Positions 2,361 through 52,032 of a stretch of 64,000 nucleotides of DNA are shown here, in pieces. How positions within the stretch are numbered: the first letter of the stretch is position 1; each line of letters starts with the position of its first letter. This stretch comes from the human T2T-CHM13v2.0 reference genome, Homo sapiens. Made by a program: the position numbers and the translations under genes. The notes below the pieces were generated by a model, which worked only from the letters and a program-made list of their open reading frames with translations, was not told the DNA's origin and made no database searches. The stretch covers positions 41,056,001 through 41,120,000 of the forward strand of contig CP068257.2 of assembly GCA_009914755.4 (NCBI GenBank), read 5' to 3'.

Positions 2361-2486
2361 TAGAGAGAGGCCAGCCCTGGCACCAGGTGGGCATGCCAGC
2401 ATCACCTTCAAGGTGTGCTTTAAGGATCCAAGATAATGTGGGTGCTTCAACAGATGCATGGCAATAAAAGGAAAGCACCATGTTTC

Positions 2487-3274
2487 ACCTTCACACACAC
2501 ACACTTACACATTCACACACTCACATACTTACACACATTCTCATACACTCACACATATGCTTACACACATTCACAGGCTCACACATGCTTACACACACAT
2601 TCACACGCACACACATTCACACGCACACATACACTTACACACATTCACACACATACACTTACATTCACACACATACACTTACATTCACACTCATACACAT
2701 ACATACATTCACACACATATTCACACATTCACACATACACATTCACACACATACACTTAGACACCACACTCACATTCACACACATTCACATACATTTACA
2801 CACACATCCACACACACATTCACACACATTCACATTTACATTCACAAACATTCACACATACATTCACACGCACTTACAGTCACACATACACTTATACACA
2901 GTCACACAGACTTGCACATAGACTTACACACATACACTTACACACGCACTCACACCTTCACACACACAGGCAATCACACATTCACACTCACGTACACTTA
3001 CCCACACATTCACACATACACACACCACATACACGCATACACTTACACATGCACTCACACACTATCACATTCACACACACATACACTTACAAACTATCAT
3101 TCACACACATACACACATACACATGCATTCACACACATGCTCACACACTCACACATACACTTACACTCACAGTCACATACACCCACATTCACACACATAC
3201 ACTCACATTCACACGCACATACACTCTGACACACATATACATACATTCACTCACACATACATTCACACACACAC
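2487..3274. repeat. ~0.8 kb degenerate CA-rich simple repeat / cryptic minisatellite, (ACACATTCAC/ACACATACACTT)n-like, almost G-free on the + strand
   Basis: Direct reading shows continuous cacacacattcacacatacacttacac... variants. The HTHTH.. ORFs at 2436-3305 are translation artefacts of this repeat. Confidence 0.9.
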
Positions 3275-15990: not shown

Positions 15991-17721
15991 ATCCCCCCAG
16001 GCCTCCGGGGCCGCCTGGGCTGCCTGGCCTCACGACCTGGCCCCATGCTCCTGAGATGGAGAAGCCCCAGGCCCATGAGCCTGTTGCCCTTGGCAAAGCC
16101 ACTTCCCTTCTGAGTAAAGTCAGACGAGCCTGCCCAGTCCCAAGAGACTGCGATTCCGTAATCGCCCTCCCCTCGCCTTTTGAGGTCTTGCTGGTAGGTG
16201 CACCCCCTTCAAGCCAGCCCAAGGAGCCATGATTTGAGTCGGTCTTGCCAGATGTGTCTGGAGAGAATTTAACTCCAAGATCATCCCCCGTGCACTCTGA
16301 GGGGCTGGGACAGGATGTGGTGCCCTTTGTGCCCAGGAGGAGAAGCACCCAGTGGGGCGGGGTGGGGCGAGGACTTTATAAAGGCGTCATTTGCTGCGGC
16401 CACCCAGGTTGGAACACAGGGACCACAGGGCCCCCCGCCTTCTGCAGGACCACCCCGCTCATCTGAGGGAGACACTGTAGAAACACATCTTTGAGCAGTG
16501 GCTTCTAATCCAAGAAACCCAATAGAAGTCAAACGCAGATTCCTAGGGCCCAACCCGGACCCACTGCGTGGGAATCCCTCAGCCGGGGCCAGAAGCACGC
16601 TTTGAAGACACCAACCTCCTCAGCAAGCCTCTTGCAAACCACATCCTGCTTCTCCAGAAGCTGCAGATCCAGAATGTTCAAAGAAAGAGCCCTCCTTGCC
16701 TTCCTCTTCTTCCACCCCTGCCCTCTGCAGACTGGGGTTCTGTAGACCCCCAAAGTAAGTCCGCCACACCGGAAGGAAGTGAGTTACACAGGGGCCCACA
16801 TGGGAACCGCTTTTTGTCCTGTCTTGGTGGGAAAATGGCCACGACCCCAGCCCAGGCTCTGCCACGCCACAACTCCACGGGCATAGCCTGGGAGGCCGCA
16901 GCGTGAACTGTGACTAGGGCTGAGGATGGTGCCATGGTAGAAGTGAGGGCCTGGCACCCGGCCAAGTGCAGGACTCCTCGGCAGTGGGGTTGGGAGAAGC
17001 AGCCTCTGCAGGCGAGGCCAGGAACCAGGACACAGGAGGAGAAGCACATCTCAGAGGAGGGAGCTCTGGGAGGAGCCAGCAGAGTCCTGCAAAGGAGGAT
17101 GTGGGGGAAATGGGGTGAGGCCAAAGTGGGGGCTGCTGAAGGGGCTACTGCACCCGTGCGAGCAGGGCCAGGACCAAGCTGCATAGGCAGCCAGGGACAC
17201 AGCCGATGCCACAGACGTCAGGAACCACGCAATGACACAGGCCACCTTTGACCGACCGTTACCCCTGGGGCAAATACCAGTGGGGATAACGGGCAAGGAG
17301 AGGTGCTGTTTACTGTCTTATTGTTGCCAGTTCAGCAGCCCACAGGAAATGGTGTTAGTCACAGAAAAAAAAAATCTGTTTTCTATATTTCACTGTTTCC
17401 AAGTAAAGAAAAAAGAAAACTAATCTTAGCTTAAAAAAAAAAAAAATGGTGCGCTGGGCACCGAAAAATAACCATCTTCCTAGGCCTGCGTTTCCCCCAC
17501 ACCGGGGACTTGTGCTGGAAAGAAAAGCTGCGTTGGCAGCCAGGAGCCGGGGAAACTGTCCAGGGAGGCATCCTCTGCGATGAAGGCGGGGCCTCGGCGT
17601 GGCCCGTTCCGCGCTCTGTCCAGCCCTGGAGAAGCCCCACCCTCACCGAGCTCGAAATACCCCCTCCCTGAGAGCCGAGACTCATGGCCGGGACCCCTTG
17701 GACAGAAGATGCGGATGCTAA

Positions 17722-18437
<716 letters not shown>

Positions 18438-18677
18438 TGAACACGACAATGACATTTTTCACCACCCGTATGCATCAACCAAATGAAAAGATGAGCCTGT
18501 GACATTCCCGTGCGTAGAGTTACAGCTTTTCTTTTCAAAACGAACCTTCAGTTTGGAGCCGAAGCGGAAGCACGTGGCGTCTGACGTCTCCAGGGAGACC
18601 CGCCGCCCTCGCTGCCGCCTCACCGCGCTTCTGTTTTGCAGGTAATCTTCAGCAAGTACTGCAACTCCAGCGACATC

Positions 18678-18712
18678 ATGGACCTGTTCTGCATCGCCAC
18701 CGGCCTGCCTCG
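18678..18712 (+). CDS. Putative first coding exon (coding part): ATG GAC CTG TTC TGC ATC GCC ACC GGC CTG CCT CG, followed by GTGAGT donor. The 5'UTR probably starts ~18560-18642 within the CpG island
   Basis: ATG at 18678-18680 with Kozak A at -3 and G at +4 (gacatcATGg). Consensus 5' splice donor cg|gtgagt at 18713-18718. GC-rich, codon-like composition. The six-frame ORF is open back to 18642, so this could alternatively be an internal exon using the acceptor ttctgttttgcag|gta at 18641/18642. Product not recognised. Confidence 0.5.
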
Positions 18713-18966
18713 GTGAGTGCGCGCTGCGGGCTCTGCCCGGTGACGCCACGCGGCCTCCTCGCCTTTTCGGGATGGCTGGGAGGGGCGGGAAGAGGCGCTG
18801 AAGGGCCCGAGGCACCGGCCTTCTACAAGGGGCTCTTCGAAATCAATCAATGCGCAGAATCCCGAGGGAGGCTCAGCCGCCCTCCGGGCCTCTCTGCCTC
18901 CACAGGTGATGGCTGTGTCCACAAGGAGGAAACCGTCGGGCTGAATTAAACAGAACCGCCCTCCTA

Positions 18967-19314
<348 letters not shown>

Positions 19315-20366: not shown

Positions 20367-20444
20367 GAACACGACCATCTCCCTGCTGACCACCGACGAC
20401 GCCATGGTCTCCATCGACCCCACCATGCCCGCGAATTCAGAACG
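20367..20444 (+). CDS. Putative internal coding exon, 78 nt, phase 2 at both ends, encoding (R)[25 protein letters not shown](R)
   Basis: Acceptor tgggtgtgttttccag|g (polypyrimidine tract + AG) at 20366/20367. Donor aacg|gtaaga at 20444/20445. It joins in frame to the 18712 donor, where the split codon cg|g gives Arg. Strong third-position GC bias (acc atc tcc ctg ctg acc acc gac gac gcc atg gtc tcc atc gac ccc acc atg ccc). Matches ORF track 20203..20448. Confidence 0.55.
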
Positions 20445-20679
20445 GTAAGAGGCTCCGGCCGCGCTCCTCGGGGTGTGCCTGGCACTTCTCTCCATGACAT
20501 GGGAGGCTTTCTGTGATTTTGTAAATGTGCTACTGCAGAAAGGTGTGAATTGACAGCAGAGATGGAGAGCGAGGGTAGGAGCCAGTGTGAAGGAAGCTTG
20601 ACTCGTCGTGTTCCCCTGCAGAGGAGCTGGGCACGTTCCAAGATAACAATTGCAGCCGTGGCTCTGCACCTGCTTCTCA

Positions 20680-20735
20680 ACGGGAGGAGGCATTGTACAG
20701 AGGGGAAACTGAGGCCCAGGAGGGTGAGCCAAGAG
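20680..20735. mobile_element. MIR-like fragment
   Basis: gtacagaggggaaactgaggcccaggagggtgagc. Confidence 0.35.
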
Positions 20736-21327
20736 CTGCAGAGCCAGGCCCCGGGATCCCCACATTAACCCCAGGAAGGACCTCGGGAGATTCCCTACAG
20801 AGCCCCTGGGGACATTTCGTGTTTACCCACTTAGGGCCGGTCTCTGTGTTCATAAAGTGATGCCTGTGGGAGATTCTAAGCACAGAAGGGCCAGGGACAA
20901 GGGAGGCCCAGGAAGTCAAGAGGAGAGGCCGGTGAAAGCCTCCGTGAATGTCTGTGAACTAGGTCAAGCCAGCGGTGTATGGCCCAGGAAGGACGCGGAG
21001 CAGGGGCCCTCAGGTCAGTGACCTGCCCCTGTTCCTGGTGACCTGGGGAGACCCCAGCAGCCTCCACTGCTCTTTGTGGTTGGGCAAAGTGGAACTTAGA
21101 TTTCCTCATGAGGCGAGGGAGCAGGTGAGCTGGGGGCGGGGCGTGCGACCTCAGGACCCCTCTCTGGCGTCCTCTGTTCCTCCCAGAGTGGGGCTCACTG
21201 TGCCTCCAAGGGACTCAGTAGATGCGATGGTACACTTGTCAATCTGGTCATCAGGGTGTCCTGCCCAACTGACCCATGGCCAGCTCTGAGCCCACAGGAG
21301 AAAGTGCATGTCAGGCAGACCCTTGTG

Positions 21328-21678
21328 TCAGTGAGGTCCCAGTGGGCGTGGCCAGCACCGTCCCCCTCAGTGAGGCCCCCCAGTGGACGTGGCCAGTGCT
21401 GCCTCCCTCAGTGAGGTCTCAGTGGACATGGCCAGAGCCGTCCCCCTCAGTGAGCGCTCAGTAGACATGGCCAGTGCCGTCCTCAGCGAGGTCCCCGTGG
21501 GTGTGGCCAGCGCCATCCCCCTCAGCGAGGTCCTCGTGGGTGTGGCCAGCACCATCCCACTCAGCGAGGTCCCAGTGGACATGGCCAGCGCCGCCCCCCT
21601 CAGTGAGGCTTCAGTGGGCATGGCCAGTGCCGTCCCCCTCAGCGAGGTCCCAGTGGACGTGTCCAGAGCTGTCCTGGT
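21328..21678. repeat. Minisatellite A: ~9 tandem copies of a ~39-bp GC-rich unit (tcagtgaggtcccagtgggcgtggccagcaccgtccccc)
   Basis: Direct reading: successive units tcagtgaggtcccagtgggcgtggccagcaccgtccccc / tcagtgaggccccccagtggacgtggccagtgctgcctccc / tcagtgaggtctcagtggacatggccagagccgtccccc / ... ORFs 21383..21760 and 21474..21800 show the periodic peptide (SEVPVDMASA...). Confidence 0.9.
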
Positions 21679-22317
21679 CAGCCGTCCTCCCTGTCACCTT
21701 GAGGCCTCAGCCGAGCTCCTCTCATCTGGCTGTGCCCGTCAGTCTCCCCTCCTGCCCTAGCCAGGATGCCCGTCTCCTGCCCCACACAGTCTGGCTCTGA
21801 CTCTTGGCTTCCAGACTCCCCGGAAGGTGCAGTGCTAATTGGCTCCCCAGAGACTCCAGTAAGCATCTTGTCAGCCTCAGCACCAGCTCCAGCCTGGGGG
21901 GTCTCGCTCAGAAGCAAAGTCACTGAGTGACCTGTCCTCCTGACACCCACAAGACTAAAATGATCTCTCAGAGGGGACCTCACAGAAACCAGCACCTTGT
22001 CCATGCCAGCTGGGTATCTGAGAGAAACTGCTTTGTTTTCCTGAAGTCATTTGAAACAGCGTGCAGAGACATTTAAACTCGGCGGGAAATAGGAGAAGCC
22101 CACCTTGACCCTTCTAATTCTCTGGCCCCAGGTGCCTTATTAACAAGAGACAGTATCAGACACACCAGACAAAAGCCCTCCTGAGCCCAAAGAGCCCAAA
22201 TGTCTGGAAGCTCTCTGCTGAGATGCCAAAATGCATGCCTTTCTGATAAAGAGACAGAGACAGATGAGGTACCATGATATGGACATGGCAGTGGACGTGG
22301 ACAGGGGAGCAGTGGAG

Positions 22318-22800
22318 ATGGAGAAGATGGAGACACACGCAGTTGAGGATACAGGCGAAGAAGATGGAGACACACGCGGATGAGGATACAGGCGAAGAAG
22401 ATGGAGACACACGCGGATGAGGATACAGGTGAAGAAGATGGAGACACACGCGGATGAGGATACAGGTGAAGAAGGTGGAGACAGACGCGGATGAGGATAC
22501 AGATGGAGAAGATGGAGGTAGACGCGGGTGAGGATACAGGTGGAGAAGATGGAGGTAGACGCGGGTGAGGATACAGGTGGAGAAGATGGAGGTAGACGCG
22601 GGTGAGGATACAGGTGGAGAAGATGGAGGTAGACGCGGATGAGGATACAGGTGGAGAAGATGGAGGTAGACGCGGATGAGGATACAGGTGGAGAAGATGG
22701 AGGTAGACGCGGATGAGGATACAGGTGGAGAAGATGGGGTTAGACGCGGATGAGGACACAGGTGGAGAAGAGGAAGTTAGACGCGGATGAGGATATAGAT
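22318..22800. repeat. Minisatellite B: ~13 tandem copies of a 37-bp unit (gatggagacacacgcggatgaggatacaggcgaagaa), two sub-variants (agacacacgcggatg vs ggtagacgcgggtg)
   Basis: Direct reading. The 228-aa ORF 22073..22759(-) is a periodic translation of this array. Confidence 0.9.
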
Positions 22801-22839
22801 AGATGCATAGGGTGTGGATCTAACCGGGTACGGGTGATG

Positions 22840-22895
22840 TGGAAACGGATCTAGACAGCGATGTGGAAACGGATCTAGACAGCGATGTGGATGTG
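22840..22895. repeat. Small tandem duplication, 2 x ~24 bp (gatgtggaaacggatctagacagc)
   Basis: gatgtggaaacggatctagacagcgatgtggaaacggatctagacagcgatgtgg. Confidence 0.8.
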
Positions 22896-23409
22896 ATCTA
22901 GATAATGTGGCTCTGGACGTAGAAAGAGCTTCAGATGCTCTATCTATGATCGTGGGTGTGGATATAGGCATAGACATGGTGAAGAGGAGAGAATAGACTC
23001 TCCTCTCTCATGACAAACTGATCGTGGCTGGGGGCGGCACGTGCTGAGATGTGGCTGTATTTGTCCCCCAGGCTGGTGCCTGCGCCTCCTGCACCCCCGT
23101 CTCCTTTGTGCCTTCTTCCATTCCCTCTGCCACTGTTAGGTCCAGGCCTCACTGAGCTCTGACCTCCCTGCCTCCAGCCTGCCTCTCCCACACGGCTGCC
23201 AGGTTCAACCTGGTAAGACACCTTCTTCTCCATGGTGGCCTCCCAATCTGGGCCCTGCCAACTTATGCCTCACCAACTTCTCCAACTTACCCCTGTACCC
23301 ACGCCCGCACCATGCCCAGCCCACAGGATCCTGCCTTCCCAGCTCTGCAGAACCAGCTTCTGCTTATCCGCTAGGTGCCAGCCCAGCCACCTGCCTTAAG
23401 CACCATCCG

Positions 23410-24485
23410 CAGTCACCCAGCCCATCACCATCACTAGCAAAGTCACCCAGACCCATCACCATCACCATCCAGAGTCACCCAGCCCTTCACTATCACCATC
23501 CAAAGTCACCAGCCCCATCACCATCACCATCCAGAGTCACCAGCCCCATCACCATCACCATTCAAAGTCACCCACCCCGATACCATCACCATCCAAAGTC
23601 ACCCAGACCTATCACCATCATCATCCAGAGTCACCAGCCCCTTCACCATCACCATCCAAAGTCACCAGCCCCTTTACCATCACCATCCAGAGTCACCCAG
23701 TCCCATCGCCATCACCATCCAGATTCACCCAGACCCATCACCATCTCCATCTAAAGTCACCCAGACCCATCACCATCACTATCCAAAGTCACGCATCCTG
23801 TCACTATCACCATCCAAAGTCACCAAGCCCCTTCACCATCACCATCCAAAGTCACCCAGTCCTATCACCATCACCATCCTAAGTTACCAGCCTTTCACCA
23901 TCACCATCAAAGTCACCAGCCCCATCATCGTCACCATCCTATCCAAAGTCATCCAGTACCACCACCATCCAAAATCACCCAGACACATCACCATCACCAT
24001 CCAAAGCCACCTAGCCCATCACCATCACTATCCAAAGTCATCTAGCACCATCACCATCCAAAGTCACCCAGACACATCACCATCACCATCCAAAGTTACC
24101 AGCCCCATCACCATCATCATCCAGAGTCACCCAGATCCATCACCATCACCATCCAAAGTCACTCAGCCCATCACCATCACTATCCAAAGTCACCAGCCTC
24201 TTCACCATCACTATCACCAGGCCCTTCACCATCATCCGAAGTCACCCAGACCCATGACCATCACCATCCAAAGTCTTCCAGACCCATCATCATCACCATT
24301 TGAGGTCACCCAGACCCATCACCATCACCATCCAAAGTCACCCAGCCCATCACCATCACTATCCAAAGTGACCAGCCCCTTTACCATCACTATCCAAAGT
24401 CACCCAGACCCATCACCATCACCACCCAAAGTCACCCAGCCCCTTCACCATCTCCATCCAAAGTCACCCAACCTGTCACCATCAG
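23410..24485. repeat. Minisatellite C: ~1.1 kb array of ~34 copies of a ~31-32-bp unit (aagtcacccagcccatcaccatcaccatcca)
   Basis: Direct reading: agtcacccagacccatcaccatcaccatccagagtcacccagcccttcactatcaccatccaaagtcaccagccccatcaccatcaccatccag... continues to 24485. ORF 24254..24532 is a periodic translation artefact. Confidence 0.92.
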
Positions 24486-25712
24486 CACATCACTGGCTTC
24501 CTCCCCTCAGTGTGCGCCTCAGTCTGAAGTGATCTCACTTACTTGTTTGAGGTTCTCACTGCTGCTGGCCCCGCTGGACGGTCTTCTCTCATAGGAAGGA
24601 AATTTCACCTTGCTCTCTGCTGGATTTCCAGCCCCTAAACGAGGCGGGGCATGCTGGGTGCAGGATGGAATGAGTTGGGGACGGAGTGAACCAGTCCAGC
24701 TCGTGCGTGCCTCCCCCTCTGCACTGCCCAGAGCAGTTTTTTTTTCTGGGGACGCAGGGCAACGTCTGGAGACATTTCTGGATGTCACCAGGGGTAAGGG
24801 CCTGCTACTTGTATCTGATGGGTGGAGACCCGGGATGCCGATGGCATCCTACAGCGCACAGGACAGGCCCACAACAATGACACACGTGGCCGGAGACATC
24901 AGCGGTGCTGAGGCGGAGCACCTGGTGACTGAGGTCTCCCCTGTGCTCTGTCGCTGTCCTCTCACCCTCCCCCAATCTTCCAACCTAGTAGTTCTCAGAC
25001 AACTGCGTCAGAATCCGCAGGGGGCTTGGTGGAGCACAGAGCTCCCCTCAGTCTCTGGTTTGTGACGGAGGTGGGCCCCGAGAATCTTTCTGCAGCAGAA
25101 AGCCAGGCTTTCTGCAGGTTCCCAGTGAGGAGGACGAGGCTGGCCCGGGACACGCCACTGATGCTCTTCTGACCCAGGGGCTTTTCTCTCCCGCTTCCGT
25201 CCCTCTTCCCTCGCCGGCAGGTGACGTTACTGGCCTTTTCTTTTTTGGCCCTGCCTCCCCCTTGGCTTCTCCCCTCTTCCTCTCCTCCACTCGGTGCCTG
25301 GTGACATGCGGCCATCCTCAGAGATGTGCTTCGGGGCCCGCACGCCTTGCTCCTCGCACTCTTCCTGCACCGGAGCCGCGGTGCGAGGCCTCGGGAATGC
25401 TCACCGTTTCTCTCCCGCCCCCCGGCCGCATGCTGCAGCCATTCCCTCACCACATGTCCAGGAGGGAGCCGGCATCCTTTGCTGACTCTCTTGCTGTGAC
25501 TATGGTGCTGCGTGGAAAAGGGGCCGTGGGAAGGCTGGGCAGGTGGCTGCTCAGAGCCCCACCTGACACGGTGACCCACGGGGCCTGGAAATTCACTGCC
25601 CCGATTTCCACACAGGTGCCTGAGCTCCTGCAGAGAATGCCTGAGAGCGAGACGCATGCCCGTCAATTTGTGCTTTCAGGCGTCCTAAGCACACACGCCT
25701 GCTCTTATTTGA

Positions 25713-26072
<360 letters not shown>

Positions 26073-26074
26073 AC

Positions 26075-26377
<303 letters not shown>

Positions 26378-26674
26378 CACCCAGGAATCTTTTAAAAGGT
26401 ACCAGTTGATGCCCAGACCCCTCAATTAAGTCCAGATTTTTAAGAGATTTTTTTTTTTTAAAGCTCTGCAAGTGATTCCAGCACACAGTCTGGGGACTAA
26501 CCGCTGATATAAGGTCTGGAAAATCTAAGAAACCACTCTACCCCACCCTCTGGTGACCAGAAGCTTATGTCTACCAGACCCAGGGCCTTCCCTTGCTGAA
26601 ACATGCTGGGTAAACTCTTTGTTTCTTCCTAGCAGACAGCAGCCCTCTCCCTCTAGCTCAGAAGCTACGTCAGC

Positions 26675-26712
26675 AGTTGGTTGGTTGGTTGGTTGGTGGG
26701 TTGGTTGGGTTG
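26675..26712. repeat. (TTGG)n microsatellite
   Basis: gttggttggttggttggttggtgggttggttgggttg. Confidence 0.85.
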
Positions 26713-46894: not shown

Positions 46895-47360
46895 AGTCTT
46901 TGTTGATATGGTTGGGGTTAGCTCTCCCAGTCTTTGTTCATATGGTTGGGGTTGGCTCTACCAGTCTTTGTTCATATGGTTGGGGTTAGCTCTACCAGTC
47001 TTTATTGATATGGTTGAGGTTAGCTCTACCAGTCTTTGTCGACATGGTTTGGGTTAGCTCTACCAGTCTTTGTCGATATGGTTGGGGTTAGCTCTACCAG
47101 TCTTTGTTGATATGGTTGGGGTTAGCTCTACCAGTCTTTGTTGATTAGCTCTCCCAGTCTTTGTTGATATGGTTGGGGTTAGCTCTACCAGTCTTTGTTC
47201 ATATGGTTGGGGTTAGCTCTACCAGTCTTTGTTGATATGGTTGAGGTTAGCTCTACCAGTCTTTGTTGATATGGTTGGGGTTAGCTCTACCAGTCTTTGT
47301 TCATATGGTTGGGGTTAGCTCTACCAGCCTTTGTTCATATGGTTGGGGTTAGCTCTACCA
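46895..47360. repeat. Minisatellite D: ~14 tandem copies of a 34-bp unit (gtctttgttgatatggttggggttagctctacca)
   Basis: Direct reading: ...agtctttgttgatatggttggggttagctctcccagtctttgttcatatggttggggttggctctaccagtctttgttcatatggttggggttagctctaccag... One unit (47131-47160) is truncated. Confidence 0.92.
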
Positions 47361-48069: not shown

Positions 48070-48235
48070 ACTCTCAGGGCTGTACATTCCCTGGGTTTGG
48101 ACAAATATATGATGACCTGTGTGTCCCATCCCAGTCTCAGACAGAATCGGTTCTCTCAGGGCTGTACATTCCCTGGGTTTGGACAAATATATGATGACCT
48201 GTGTGTCCCATCCCAGTCTCAGACAGAATCGGTTC
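48070..48235. repeat. 83-bp perfect tandem duplication (2 copies) inside the L1 body
   Basis: ctctcagggctgtacattccctgggtttggacaaatatatgatgacctgtgtgtcccatcccagtctcagacagaatcggtt occurs at 48070-48152 and again at 48153-48235. ORFs 48097.. and 48119.. are artefacts of it. Confidence 0.9.
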
Positions 48236-51723: not shown

Positions 51724-52032
51724 GGCCAAGTACAGTGGCTCACACCTGACATCTCAGCACTTTGGGAGGCCGAGGTGGGTGGATCAACTGAGGTCAGGAG
51801 TTTGAAACCAGCCTGGCCAACATGGTGAAATCCTGTCTCTTCTAAAAAAAATTTTGAAAAAATTAGCCGGGTGTGGTGGCGCATACCTGTAATCCCAGCT
51901 ACTCAGGAGGCTGAGGCAGGAGAATCCCTTGAACCTGGGAGCCAGAGGTTGCAGTGAGCCGAGATGGCGCCACTGCCCTCCAGCCTGGGTGACAGAGTGA
52001 GAGTCTGTCTCAAAAATAAAAAAAAAAAAAAG
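51724..52032 (+). mobile_element. Alu SINE (sense)
   Basis: ggccaagtacagtggctcacacctgacatctcagcactttgggaggccgaggtgggtggatcaactgaggtcaggagtttgaaaccagcctggccaacatggtgaaatcctgtctcttctaaaaaaaattttgaaaaaattagccggg...gagtctgtctcaaaaataaaaaaaaaaaaa. Confidence 0.9.

What the first reader, a model, noticed from the sequence alone, without database searches (positions are those of the whole stretch)
21328..24485. Cluster of three unrelated GC-rich minisatellites (39-bp x9, 37-bp x13, ~31-bp x34) within 3.2 kb of intron 2
Three different tandem arrays follow one another immediately downstream of the coding exon, with unit lengths of 39, 37 and ~31 bp and a total of ~1.9 kb. The 37-bp array carries two clearly separated sub-variant blocks (..agacacacgcggatg.. 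then ..ggtagacgcgggtg..), which implies recent unequal-exchange expansion. Such VNTR clusters are typical of subtelomeric or otherwise recombination-active human regions and are usually highly length-polymorphic. Intronic VNTRs of this kind can be hard to assemble, can act as expression-modulating elements, and can cause spurious ORF calls, as they do here.
Basis: seen in the sequence. Interest (0 to 1): 0.6.

Follow-up and report, generated by a model that had tools for sequence, protein, structure and literature searches.

The report
Intronic minisatellite cluster in human PDE9A
Three real, mutually unrelated non-coding tandem-repeat arrays lie in an 11-kb intron of the PDE9A gene on distal chromosome 21; this is an ordinary repeat cluster of the kind common near chromosome ends, and nothing found here points to a special function.

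Summary
TRF finds 39 bp x8.9 (21328-21674), 37 bp x12.9 (22319-22795) and 31 bp x35.1 (23401-24484), 1,908 bp in total. It also finds a perfect 24 bp x2.3 array at 22836-22891. Thirty dinucleotide shuffles gave no arrays. The units are unrelated to each other and occur nowhere else in the window. The host gene is PDE9A at 21q22.3: three window exons match residues 24-87 of PDB PDE9A chains at 100%. The arrays lie in the 11,009-bp intron between exons at 20367-20444 and 31454-31497. That is canonical intron 3 if exon 1 is a single exon upstream, not "intron 2". Only array 1 is GC-rich (68%); arrays 2 and 3 are 54% and 52%. The 37-bp array is young: 95% identity, runs of identical units and CpG o/e 1.24. 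The other two are older and CpG-decayed. ORFs through the arrays have no homologues and no Pfam hit above cutoff. I found no PRDM9 motif, no Jeffreys core, no canonical G4 and no unusual folding. Two non-primate orthologous contigs lack the arrays. Length polymorphism and expression effects could not be tested here. Verdict: an ordinary distal-chromosome VNTR cluster of low interest.

The parts
21328..21674 (.). Array 1: 39-bp minisatellite, about 9 units, consensus TCAGTGAGGTCCCAGTGGACGTGGCCAGCGCCGTCCCCC. GC is 68% and CpG o/e is 0.42. It is older and CpG-decayed, with a roughly 192-bp (5-unit) higher-order duplication.
   Evidence: TRF one search gives periods 39, 78, 153 and 192. The unit alignment shows 34 of 42 substitutions are transitions, 19 of them at CpG-type columns. 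Autocorrelation is 0.69 at lag 39 and 0.66 at lag 192.
22319..22795 (.). Array 2: 37-bp minisatellite, 12.9 units, consensus TGGAGAAGATGGAGGTAGACGCGGATGAGGATACAGG. Identity is 95% with no indels. It is purine-rich on the sense strand (G 207, C 50), with CpG o/e 1.24. Units 2-3, 6-8 and 9-11 form blocks of identical units.
   Evidence: TRF, unit listing and composition, CpG scan, autocorrelation (0.95 at lag 37).
22836..22891 (.). Small perfect 24-bp x2.3 tandem duplication (GATGTGGAAACGGATCTAGACAGC), 40 bp downstream of array 2.
   Evidence: TRF (100% matches). It matches only itself in the window.
23401..24484 (.). Array 3: 31/32-bp minisatellite, about 35 units, consensus CACCATCCAAAGTCACCCAGACCCATCACCAT. 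It is C/A-rich on the sense strand (C 479, G 84), with CpG o/e 0.16. Unit variants are interspersed and carry indels, so it is older.
   Evidence: TRF (77% matches, 8% indels), unit listing, composition.
18642..18712 (+). PDE9A coding exon (residues about 24-46, [23 protein letters not shown]). This is canonical exon 2.
   Evidence: tblastn, sequence and splice sites, 100% match to PDB PDE9A chains.
20367..20444 (+). PDE9A coding exon ([26 protein letters not shown]). This is canonical exon 3 and the exon upstream of the arrays.
   Evidence: Sequence, tblastn, PDB match. It is conserved in two other vertebrate contigs.
20445..31453 (+). The host intron, 11,009 bp with GT..AG ends. The four arrays make up about 18% of it.
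   Evidence: Splice junctions read. The orthologous intron is only 908 bp in contig L002.
31454..31497 (+). PDE9A coding exon (TPYKVRPVAIKQLS). This is canonical exon 4.
   Evidence: Sequence, tblastn, PDB match. It is conserved in L002.

Best explanation
This is a cluster of independent, non-coding minisatellite arrays inside an 11-kb intron of PDE9A, between the exons at 20.4 kb and 31.45 kb, on distal 21q. Each array arose from a different seed sequence. Each grew by replication slippage, unequal sister-chromatid or allelic exchange, and gene conversion. The arrays differ in age. The 37-bp array expanded or was homogenised recently, as shown by identical neighbouring units and intact CpGs. 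The 39-bp and 31-bp arrays are older and have diverged, the former mainly through CpG-to-TpG/CpA decay, which indicates germline methylation. The arrays are transcribed only as part of the pre-mRNA intron and removed by splicing. They most likely have no sequence-specific function, and their main consequence is probably allele-length variation. What is shown here: the periodicity, the mutual unrelatedness, the block structure, the intronic position and the lack of coding signal. What is inferred: the mutational mechanism, the relative ages and the neutrality.
For: TRF scores run from 361 to 1109, against zero arrays in 30 shuffles. There is no cross-similarity between units and no other copies in the window. 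In array 2, units 6-8 and 9-11 are identical, units 2-3 are identical and the edge units are diverged. CpG o/e is 1.24 in array 2, 0.42 in array 1 and 0.16 in array 3. In array 1, 34 of 42 substitutions are transitions, 19 of them at CpG-type columns. The flanking exons match PDB PDE9A residues 24-87 at 100% and have canonical splice sites. The 37- and 31-bp periods are not multiples of 3. ORFs through the arrays have no homologues and no Pfam hit above cutoff. Rfam finds nothing in the region. Single-strand folding is no better than shuffles, with z from -0.75 to +0.11. The arrays contain no canonical G3+ quadruplex motif, no PRDM9 13-mer and no Jeffreys core. Orthologous contigs from two other vertebrates have no tandem repeats downstream of the same exon, and in one the whole intron is 908 bp. 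The literature places such clusters preferentially within 5 Mb of chromosome ends (PMC7608644), and PDE9A maps to 21q22.3 (PMC1647287).
Against: Neutrality was not tested. Array 2 and its flanks (22221-22920) have the highest CpG o/e of the whole window, 1.05. Retained CpGs could reflect germline hypomethylation, which is a regulatory hallmark, rather than youth alone. Array 2 carries about 9 CAGGTG E-boxes and 13 GAAGAA/GGAGAA purine motifs on the sense strand. Array 3 carries 45 CACCATC motifs. Such motif arrays could bind transcription or splicing factors. The arrays also sit in the 5' exon region that is heavily alternatively spliced in humans (PMC1647287). No population or primate data could be obtained.
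Confidence: 0.85

Rival explanations
1. The cluster, or the CpG-rich G-skewed 37-bp array alone, is a cis-regulatory VNTR. Under this reading, its length or motif composition tunes PDE9A transcription, local methylation or the choice among 5' exons. It would do so by presenting tens of copies of factor-binding motifs in the DNA or the pre-mRNA.
For: Array 2 with its flanks is the most CpG-dense stretch in the window (o/e 1.05 over 700 bp). Array 2 has 9 CAGGTG, 11 AAGATGG and 13 GAAGAA/GGAGAA motifs, and array 3 has 45 CACCATC motifs. Human PDE9A has at least 20 variants made by alternative splicing of 5' exons, whereas rodents have one (PMC1647287). The arrays are absent from two non-primate orthologous contigs. 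Expression-associated VNTRs are a documented class (titles and abstracts).
Against: Nothing ties these particular arrays to expression. PDE9A is absent from the held supplements of two VNTR studies, and no paper links PDE9A to a VNTR or tandem repeat. The known PDE9A differentially methylated marker maps 2.55 kb upstream at 18702-18780, not in the arrays. Motif counts inside a repeat follow automatically from repetition and are not evidence of binding.
Confidence: 0.1
2. The arrays are internal repeat regions of a transposable element or composite retroelement (SVA-like or LTR-derived), rather than locally born minisatellites.
For: Many human VNTRs derive from retroelements (general knowledge). 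The window is Alu-rich.
Against: The three units are unrelated to each other and have no other copies in 64 kb. No flanking long inverted or direct repeats were found, only weak chance-level pairs. No poly-A tract abuts the arrays in the sequence read. No Dfam or RepeatMasker tool was available, so this rival is not formally excluded.
Confidence: 0.04
3. One or more arrays are protein-coding, or are exonised as repeat-encoded peptide segments of a PDE9A isoform or another gene.
For: The 39-bp unit is a multiple of three and gives a 125-aa ORF with 13-residue repeats. That ORF hits Pfam Lysostaphin_N at E = 3.4e-8. Each 39-bp unit contains acceptor-like (CCCCCTCAG) and donor-like (GTGAGG) strings.
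Against: The Pfam score of 33.9 bits is far below the curated cutoff of 60. Lysostaphin_N is itself a 13-residue repeat (from memory), so the hit is most simply a match of period and composition. Variation in the 39-bp array follows a CpG-decay pattern, not a codon pattern. The segment from an acceptor-like AG to the next donor-like GT is 38 nt and would shift the frame (read). The 37- and 31-bp periods cannot be coding. The 228-aa ORF has no homologue. The PDE9A protein sequence runs directly from the 20.4-kb exon to the 31.45-kb exon.
Confidence: 0.01

Closest known systems
Subtelomeric intronic VNTR clusters of brain-expressed genes, such as PTPRN2 and DLGAP2 (Linthorst et al. 2020, PMC7608644)
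   Same: Both have several minisatellites with units longer than 15 bp packed into introns of a gene on a distal chromosome band. Array 1 meets that paper's class definition of >60% GC and a unit >15 bp. Unequal recombination is the presumed origin in both.
   Different: Arrays 2 and 3 fall below the 60% GC criterion. PDE9A is not named in that paper or its held supplements. Polymorphism was not shown here.
CACNA1C intron 3 VNTR (PMC12452837 and PMC11118589, abstracts listed)
   Same: Both are large intronic arrays with many unit variants. Array 3 here is a 31-bp x35 array. From memory, the CACNA1C unit is about 30 bp.
   Different: The CACNA1C repeat lies next to disease-associated SNPs, and its population variability has been delineated in long-read assemblies. 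No such data exist for the PDE9A arrays. The unit sequences were not compared.
Classical Jeffreys 'core' hypervariable minisatellites
   Same: Both are tandem arrays of 10-60-bp units with interspersed unit variants and polar homogenisation.
   Different: The GGGCAGGANG core is absent from all three arrays, even allowing one mismatch. No PRDM9 13-mer is present in them either.
SVA-element VNTR region
   Same: Array 1 resembles it in being a GC-rich repeat with a 35-50-bp unit.
   Different: I saw no Alu-like, SINE-R or poly-A parts flanking the array (sequence), and the window holds no further copies of the unit. A Dfam comparison was not possible.

Membership tests
Minisatellite / VNTR | Head-to-tail tandem array with a unit of roughly 7-100 bp, well beyond chance | tested here: met
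   TRF scores are 361, 723 and 1109, against 0 arrays in 30 dinucleotide shuffles.
Minisatellite / VNTR | Copy number varies between individuals (the 'variable' in VNTR) | not testable with these tools
   No human or primate haplotypes could be reached. The metagenome scans were empty and the protein-based search was empty. Blocks of identical units in array 2 show only recent turnover.
Minisatellite / VNTR | Non-coding | tested here: met
   The arrays lie inside a GT..AG intron between two PDE9A exons that are contiguous in the protein. There are no homologues and no Pfam hit above cutoff. The 31- and 37-bp periods are not multiples of 3.
Subtelomeric GC-rich long-unit VNTR class (PMC7608644) | GC content >60% and unit >15 bp | tested here: inconclusive
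   Array 1 meets the criterion at 68.3% GC. Arrays 2 (53.9%) and 3 (51.9%) do not. All three units are longer than 15 bp.
Subtelomeric GC-rich long-unit VNTR class (PMC7608644) | Located within 5 Mb of a chromosome end | not testable with these tools
   The gene is PDE9A, which maps to 21q22.3 (PMC1647287). From memory the gene lies about 4 Mb from 21qter in GRCh38, but no coordinate tool was available.
Jeffreys core minisatellites | Unit contains the GGGCAGGANG core | tested here: not met
   None of the 47 matches at one mismatch or fewer falls within 21328-21674, 22319-22795 or 23401-24484.
PRDM9-motif recombination-hotspot repeats | CCNCCNTNNCCNC motif in the unit | tested here: not met
   The window has 8 matches and none lies in the arrays.
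G-quadruplex-forming minisatellites (CEB1/CEB25-like) | Four or more runs of G3+ per unit, or G4Hunter above about 1.5 | tested here: not met
   There are 0 canonical G3+ motifs on either strand of any array. Mean G4Hunter scores are -0.37, 0.65 and -0.85. Only two-tetrad patterns occur.

The most novel reading that the evidence does not exclude
The cluster may be primate-specific and sits in the intron between exons 3 and 4, inside the 5' exon block that humans splice into at least 20 PDE9A isoforms while rodents make one. It might act as a length-dependent modulator of PDE9A isoform choice or expression. Candidate routes are the CpG-dense, G-skewed 37-bp array (methylation or R-loop sensitive) or the purine-rich and CA-rich motif arrays in the pre-mRNA.
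Probability: 0.07. Interest if true: 0.4.

Novelty: already known. Interest (0 to 1): 0.1.

Why it matters
It matters little beyond housekeeping. The arrays explain several long spurious ORFs. They mark a stretch of PDE9A that short reads will genotype poorly. PDE9A is a drug target and a chromosome-21 dosage and methylation marker gene, so someone fine-mapping PDE9A expression or splicing signals should genotype these arrays with long reads. Nothing here suggests a new mechanism.

Tried and rejected
1. Gene identification by database. A padded 41-aa query returned only two non-human Logan ORFs, and peptide strings were not found in the literature. The gene was finally identified by matching the three spliced exon translations to PDB SEQRES entries.

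2. Other alleles or species. Exact-pattern scans of JGI metagenome contigs with array 2 and array 3 units found nothing. The 228-aa ORF spanning array 2 found no protein. The collections evidently hold almost no primate DNA, so I did not spend the last protein search or the representative search.

3. Idea that the CpG-rich array 2 is the published placenta-hypomethylated PDE9A marker. This is rejected, because the qMSP primers and probes map to 18702-18780.

4. Idea that arrays 2 and 3 are inverted relatives, given their opposite GC skew. This is rejected, because there is no similarity on either strand and only weak chance-level inverted pairs.

5. Structure-driven instability. DNA folding z-scores are near 0 and there is no canonical G4.

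6. Recombination motifs. PRDM9 and Jeffreys core motifs are absent from the arrays.

7. The Lysostaphin_N Pfam hit for the 39-bp array ORF is dismissed as a periodicity artefact. It scores 33.9 bits against a cutoff of 60.

8. Literature on PDE9A repeats. There was nothing relevant in main texts or in the held supplements of two VNTR studies. No supplement text was held for two further studies.
Full report
**Observation**

- Array 1: 21328-21674, period 39, 8.9 copies, 78% matches. Rows at periods 78, 153 and 192 describe the same array.
- Array 2: 22319-22795, period 37, 12.9 copies, 95% matches, no indels.
- Array 3: 23401-24484, period 31, 35.1 copies, 77% matches, 8% indels.

The three main arrays sum to 1,908 bp. 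Thirty dinucleotide-preserving shuffles of the region gave no TRF row at all. BLAST of tripled unit consensuses against each other and against the window shows no cross-similarity on either strand, and each unit occurs only in its own array. 'Three unrelated arrays' is therefore correct.

**Anatomy**

Array 2 is in perfect 37-bp register.
- Units 1-5 carry GAGACACACGC(G/A)G, and units 2 and 3 are identical.
- Units 6-8 are identical (GGAGGTAGACGCGGGTG).
- Units 9-11 are identical (GGAGGTAGACGCGGATG).
- Units 12-13 are diverged.

Autocorrelation falls only from 0.95 to 0.86 over seven periods.

Array 1 has 34 transitions among 42 substitutions from its consensus, 19 of them at CpG/TpG/CpA columns. 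Its lag-192 autocorrelation (0.66) is nearly as high as its lag-39 value (0.69), which indicates an internal duplication of about five units.

Array 3 consists of interspersed 31- and 32-bp variants with occasional fused or truncated units.

Composition differs sharply between arrays.

| Array | GC | CpG o/e | Strand bias |
|---|---|---|---|
| 1 | 68.3% | 0.42 | none marked |
| 2 | 53.9% | 1.24 | G 207 vs C 50 |
| 3 | 51.9% | 0.16 | C 479 vs G 84 |

So 'GC-rich' holds for array 1 only. The pattern fits a young, or germline-unmethylated, array 2 and two older, methylated and decayed arrays. That reading is an inference.

**Where it is**

The window contains Alu elements, seen as Rfam SRP-type hits and a 294-bp Alu dimer, so it is primate DNA. 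The exon just upstream of the arrays encodes [25 protein letters not shown]. I recalled this as PDE9A and then tested the recollection. tblastn of the recalled protein found three consecutive exons on the + strand. The concatenated window translation of those exons is 100% identical to residues 24-87 of PDB chains 3qi3_A and 4qge_A, 'High affinity cGMP-specific 3',5'-cyclic phosphodiesterase 9A'.

The exons are 18642-18712, 20367-20444 and 31454-31497, all with AG/GT junctions. Residues 1-23 (MGSGSSS..., encoded by exon 1 according to PMC1647287) are not in the window. If exon 1 is a single exon upstream, the arrays lie in canonical intron 3, which runs 20445-31453 and is 11,009 bp long. They begin 884 bp after the exon and make up about 18% of the intron.

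PDE9A maps to 21q22.3, has at least 22 exons over 122 kb, and has at least 20 human mRNA variants made by alternative splicing of 5' exons, against one in rodents (PMC1647287). From memory, not tested here, the gene lies roughly 4 Mb from 21qter.

**Is it coding, structured or motif-bearing?**
- ORFs of 84-228 aa run through the arrays.
- The 228-aa ORF has no homologue among 5.8 billion proteins.
- Of five ORFs scanned against Pfam, only the 13-residue-repeat ORF of array 1 hit anything. The hit was Lysostaphin_N at 33.9 bits against a cutoff of 60. That family is itself a 13-residue repeat (from memory), so this is most simply a periodicity artefact.
- Rfam finds nothing in the region.
- Single-strand DNA folding of three-unit segments on both strands is no better than shuffles, with z from -0.75 to +0.11.
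- There are no G3+ quadruplex motifs, only two-tetrad patterns.
- The PRDM9 13-mer and the Jeffreys core are absent from all three arrays.
- No meaningful inverted repeats flank or link the arrays.

**Comparative data**

The only related DNA reachable was two Logan contigs that carry the same exon. L001 aligns to the window at 68% through the upstream intron and the exon, so it is presumably a non-primate mammal. It has 1.17 kb downstream of the exon with no tandem repeat and no alignable sequence. L002 is GC-rich and compact. It contains both flanking exons separated by only 908 bp and has no tandem repeat. The arrays are therefore not an ancient conserved feature of this intron. The lineage in which they arose cannot be fixed here. 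Scans of metagenome contigs for array 2 and array 3 units found nothing.

**Interpretation**

The most likely account (about 0.85) is the ordinary one. Three independently seeded minisatellites grew by slippage and unequal exchange in a repeat-prone distal chromosome region, are transcribed only as intron, and have no sequence-specific role.

Long-read comparisons report VNTRs enriched 7.1-fold within 5 Mb of chromosome ends, and 21-fold for those with >60% GC and units >15 bp, and attribute this to elevated recombination (PMC7608644). The same window holds further arrays at 2486-3274, 46895-47360 and 48071-48235, which fits a repeat-rich neighbourhood.

The main rival (about 0.1) is that the cluster, especially the CpG-dense, G-skewed 37-bp array, is a regulatory VNTR. 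In its favour:
- The stretch 22221-22920 has the highest CpG o/e in the window (1.05).
- The arrays multiply CAGGTG, GAAGAA/GGAGAA and CACCATC motifs.
- They sit in the alternatively spliced 5' block of the gene.

Motif counts in a repeat are automatic, though, and no study links PDE9A to a tandem repeat.

I tested one concrete version of this idea and rejected it. The published placenta-unmethylated, blood-methylated PDE9A marker maps by in-silico bisulfite conversion of its primers and probes to 18702-18780, at the exon 2/intron 2 junction and 2.55 kb upstream of array 1. A transposable-element origin (about 0.04) and coding use (about 0.01) are unlikely but were not formally excluded, because no Dfam or RNA-seq data were available.

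**Verdict**

This is a known kind of feature in a reference genome and is of low interest.

Noticed in passing
window 18702-18780: The published qMSP primers and probes for the PDE9A fetal epigenetic marker (unmethylated in placenta, methylated in blood; PMC3223183) map here by in-silico bisulfite conversion, with 0-1 mismatch each. The site is the 3' end of the exon at 18642-18712 plus the start of the next intron, inside the CpG-rich stretch 17401-19020. It is 2.55 kb upstream of the repeat cluster and distinct from it.
   Followed up: yes
window 22221-22920: The 37-bp array with its flanks is the most CpG-dense stretch of the whole 64-kb window (CpG o/e 1.05, 35 CpGs). It formally meets CpG-island criteria although it is a tandem repeat. 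Its methylation state is unknown.
   Followed up: partly
window 46895-47360 and 48071-48235: There are two further repeats in a downstream PDE9A intron. One is a 34-bp x14 minisatellite (89% matches, with 159/193-bp higher-order rows). The other is a perfect 82-bp x2 duplication. Neither is related to the three arrays of the finding.
   Followed up: partly
window 2486-3274: A compound imperfect CA/CACATTCACA-type repeat of about 790 bp lies here (TRF periods 6-44, about 62% matches). It coincides with the strong negative GC skew in the 2-3 kb bin.
   Followed up: no
window 21383-21757 (+): The 125-aa ORF through the 39-bp array has 13-residue repeats and hits Pfam Lysostaphin_N at E = 3.4e-8. 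Its score of 33.9 bits is below the curated cutoff of 60. This is an example of a repeat-period artefact in domain searches.
   Followed up: yes
L002 1024-1931 versus window 20445-31453: The orthologous intron between the same two PDE9A exons is 908 bp in an unidentified GC-rich vertebrate contig (Logan SRR28250427), against 11,009 bp here. In that species the next exon reads TPYKVRPVATKRLS, against ...AIKQLS here.
   Followed up: partly
window 18100-18216 (-), 51866-52013 (+), 25787-26367: These are Alu elements. Two register as Rfam Metazoa_SRP hits just above the gathering score, and one adjacent Alu pair appears as a 294-bp 'tandem repeat' in TRF.
   Followed up: no
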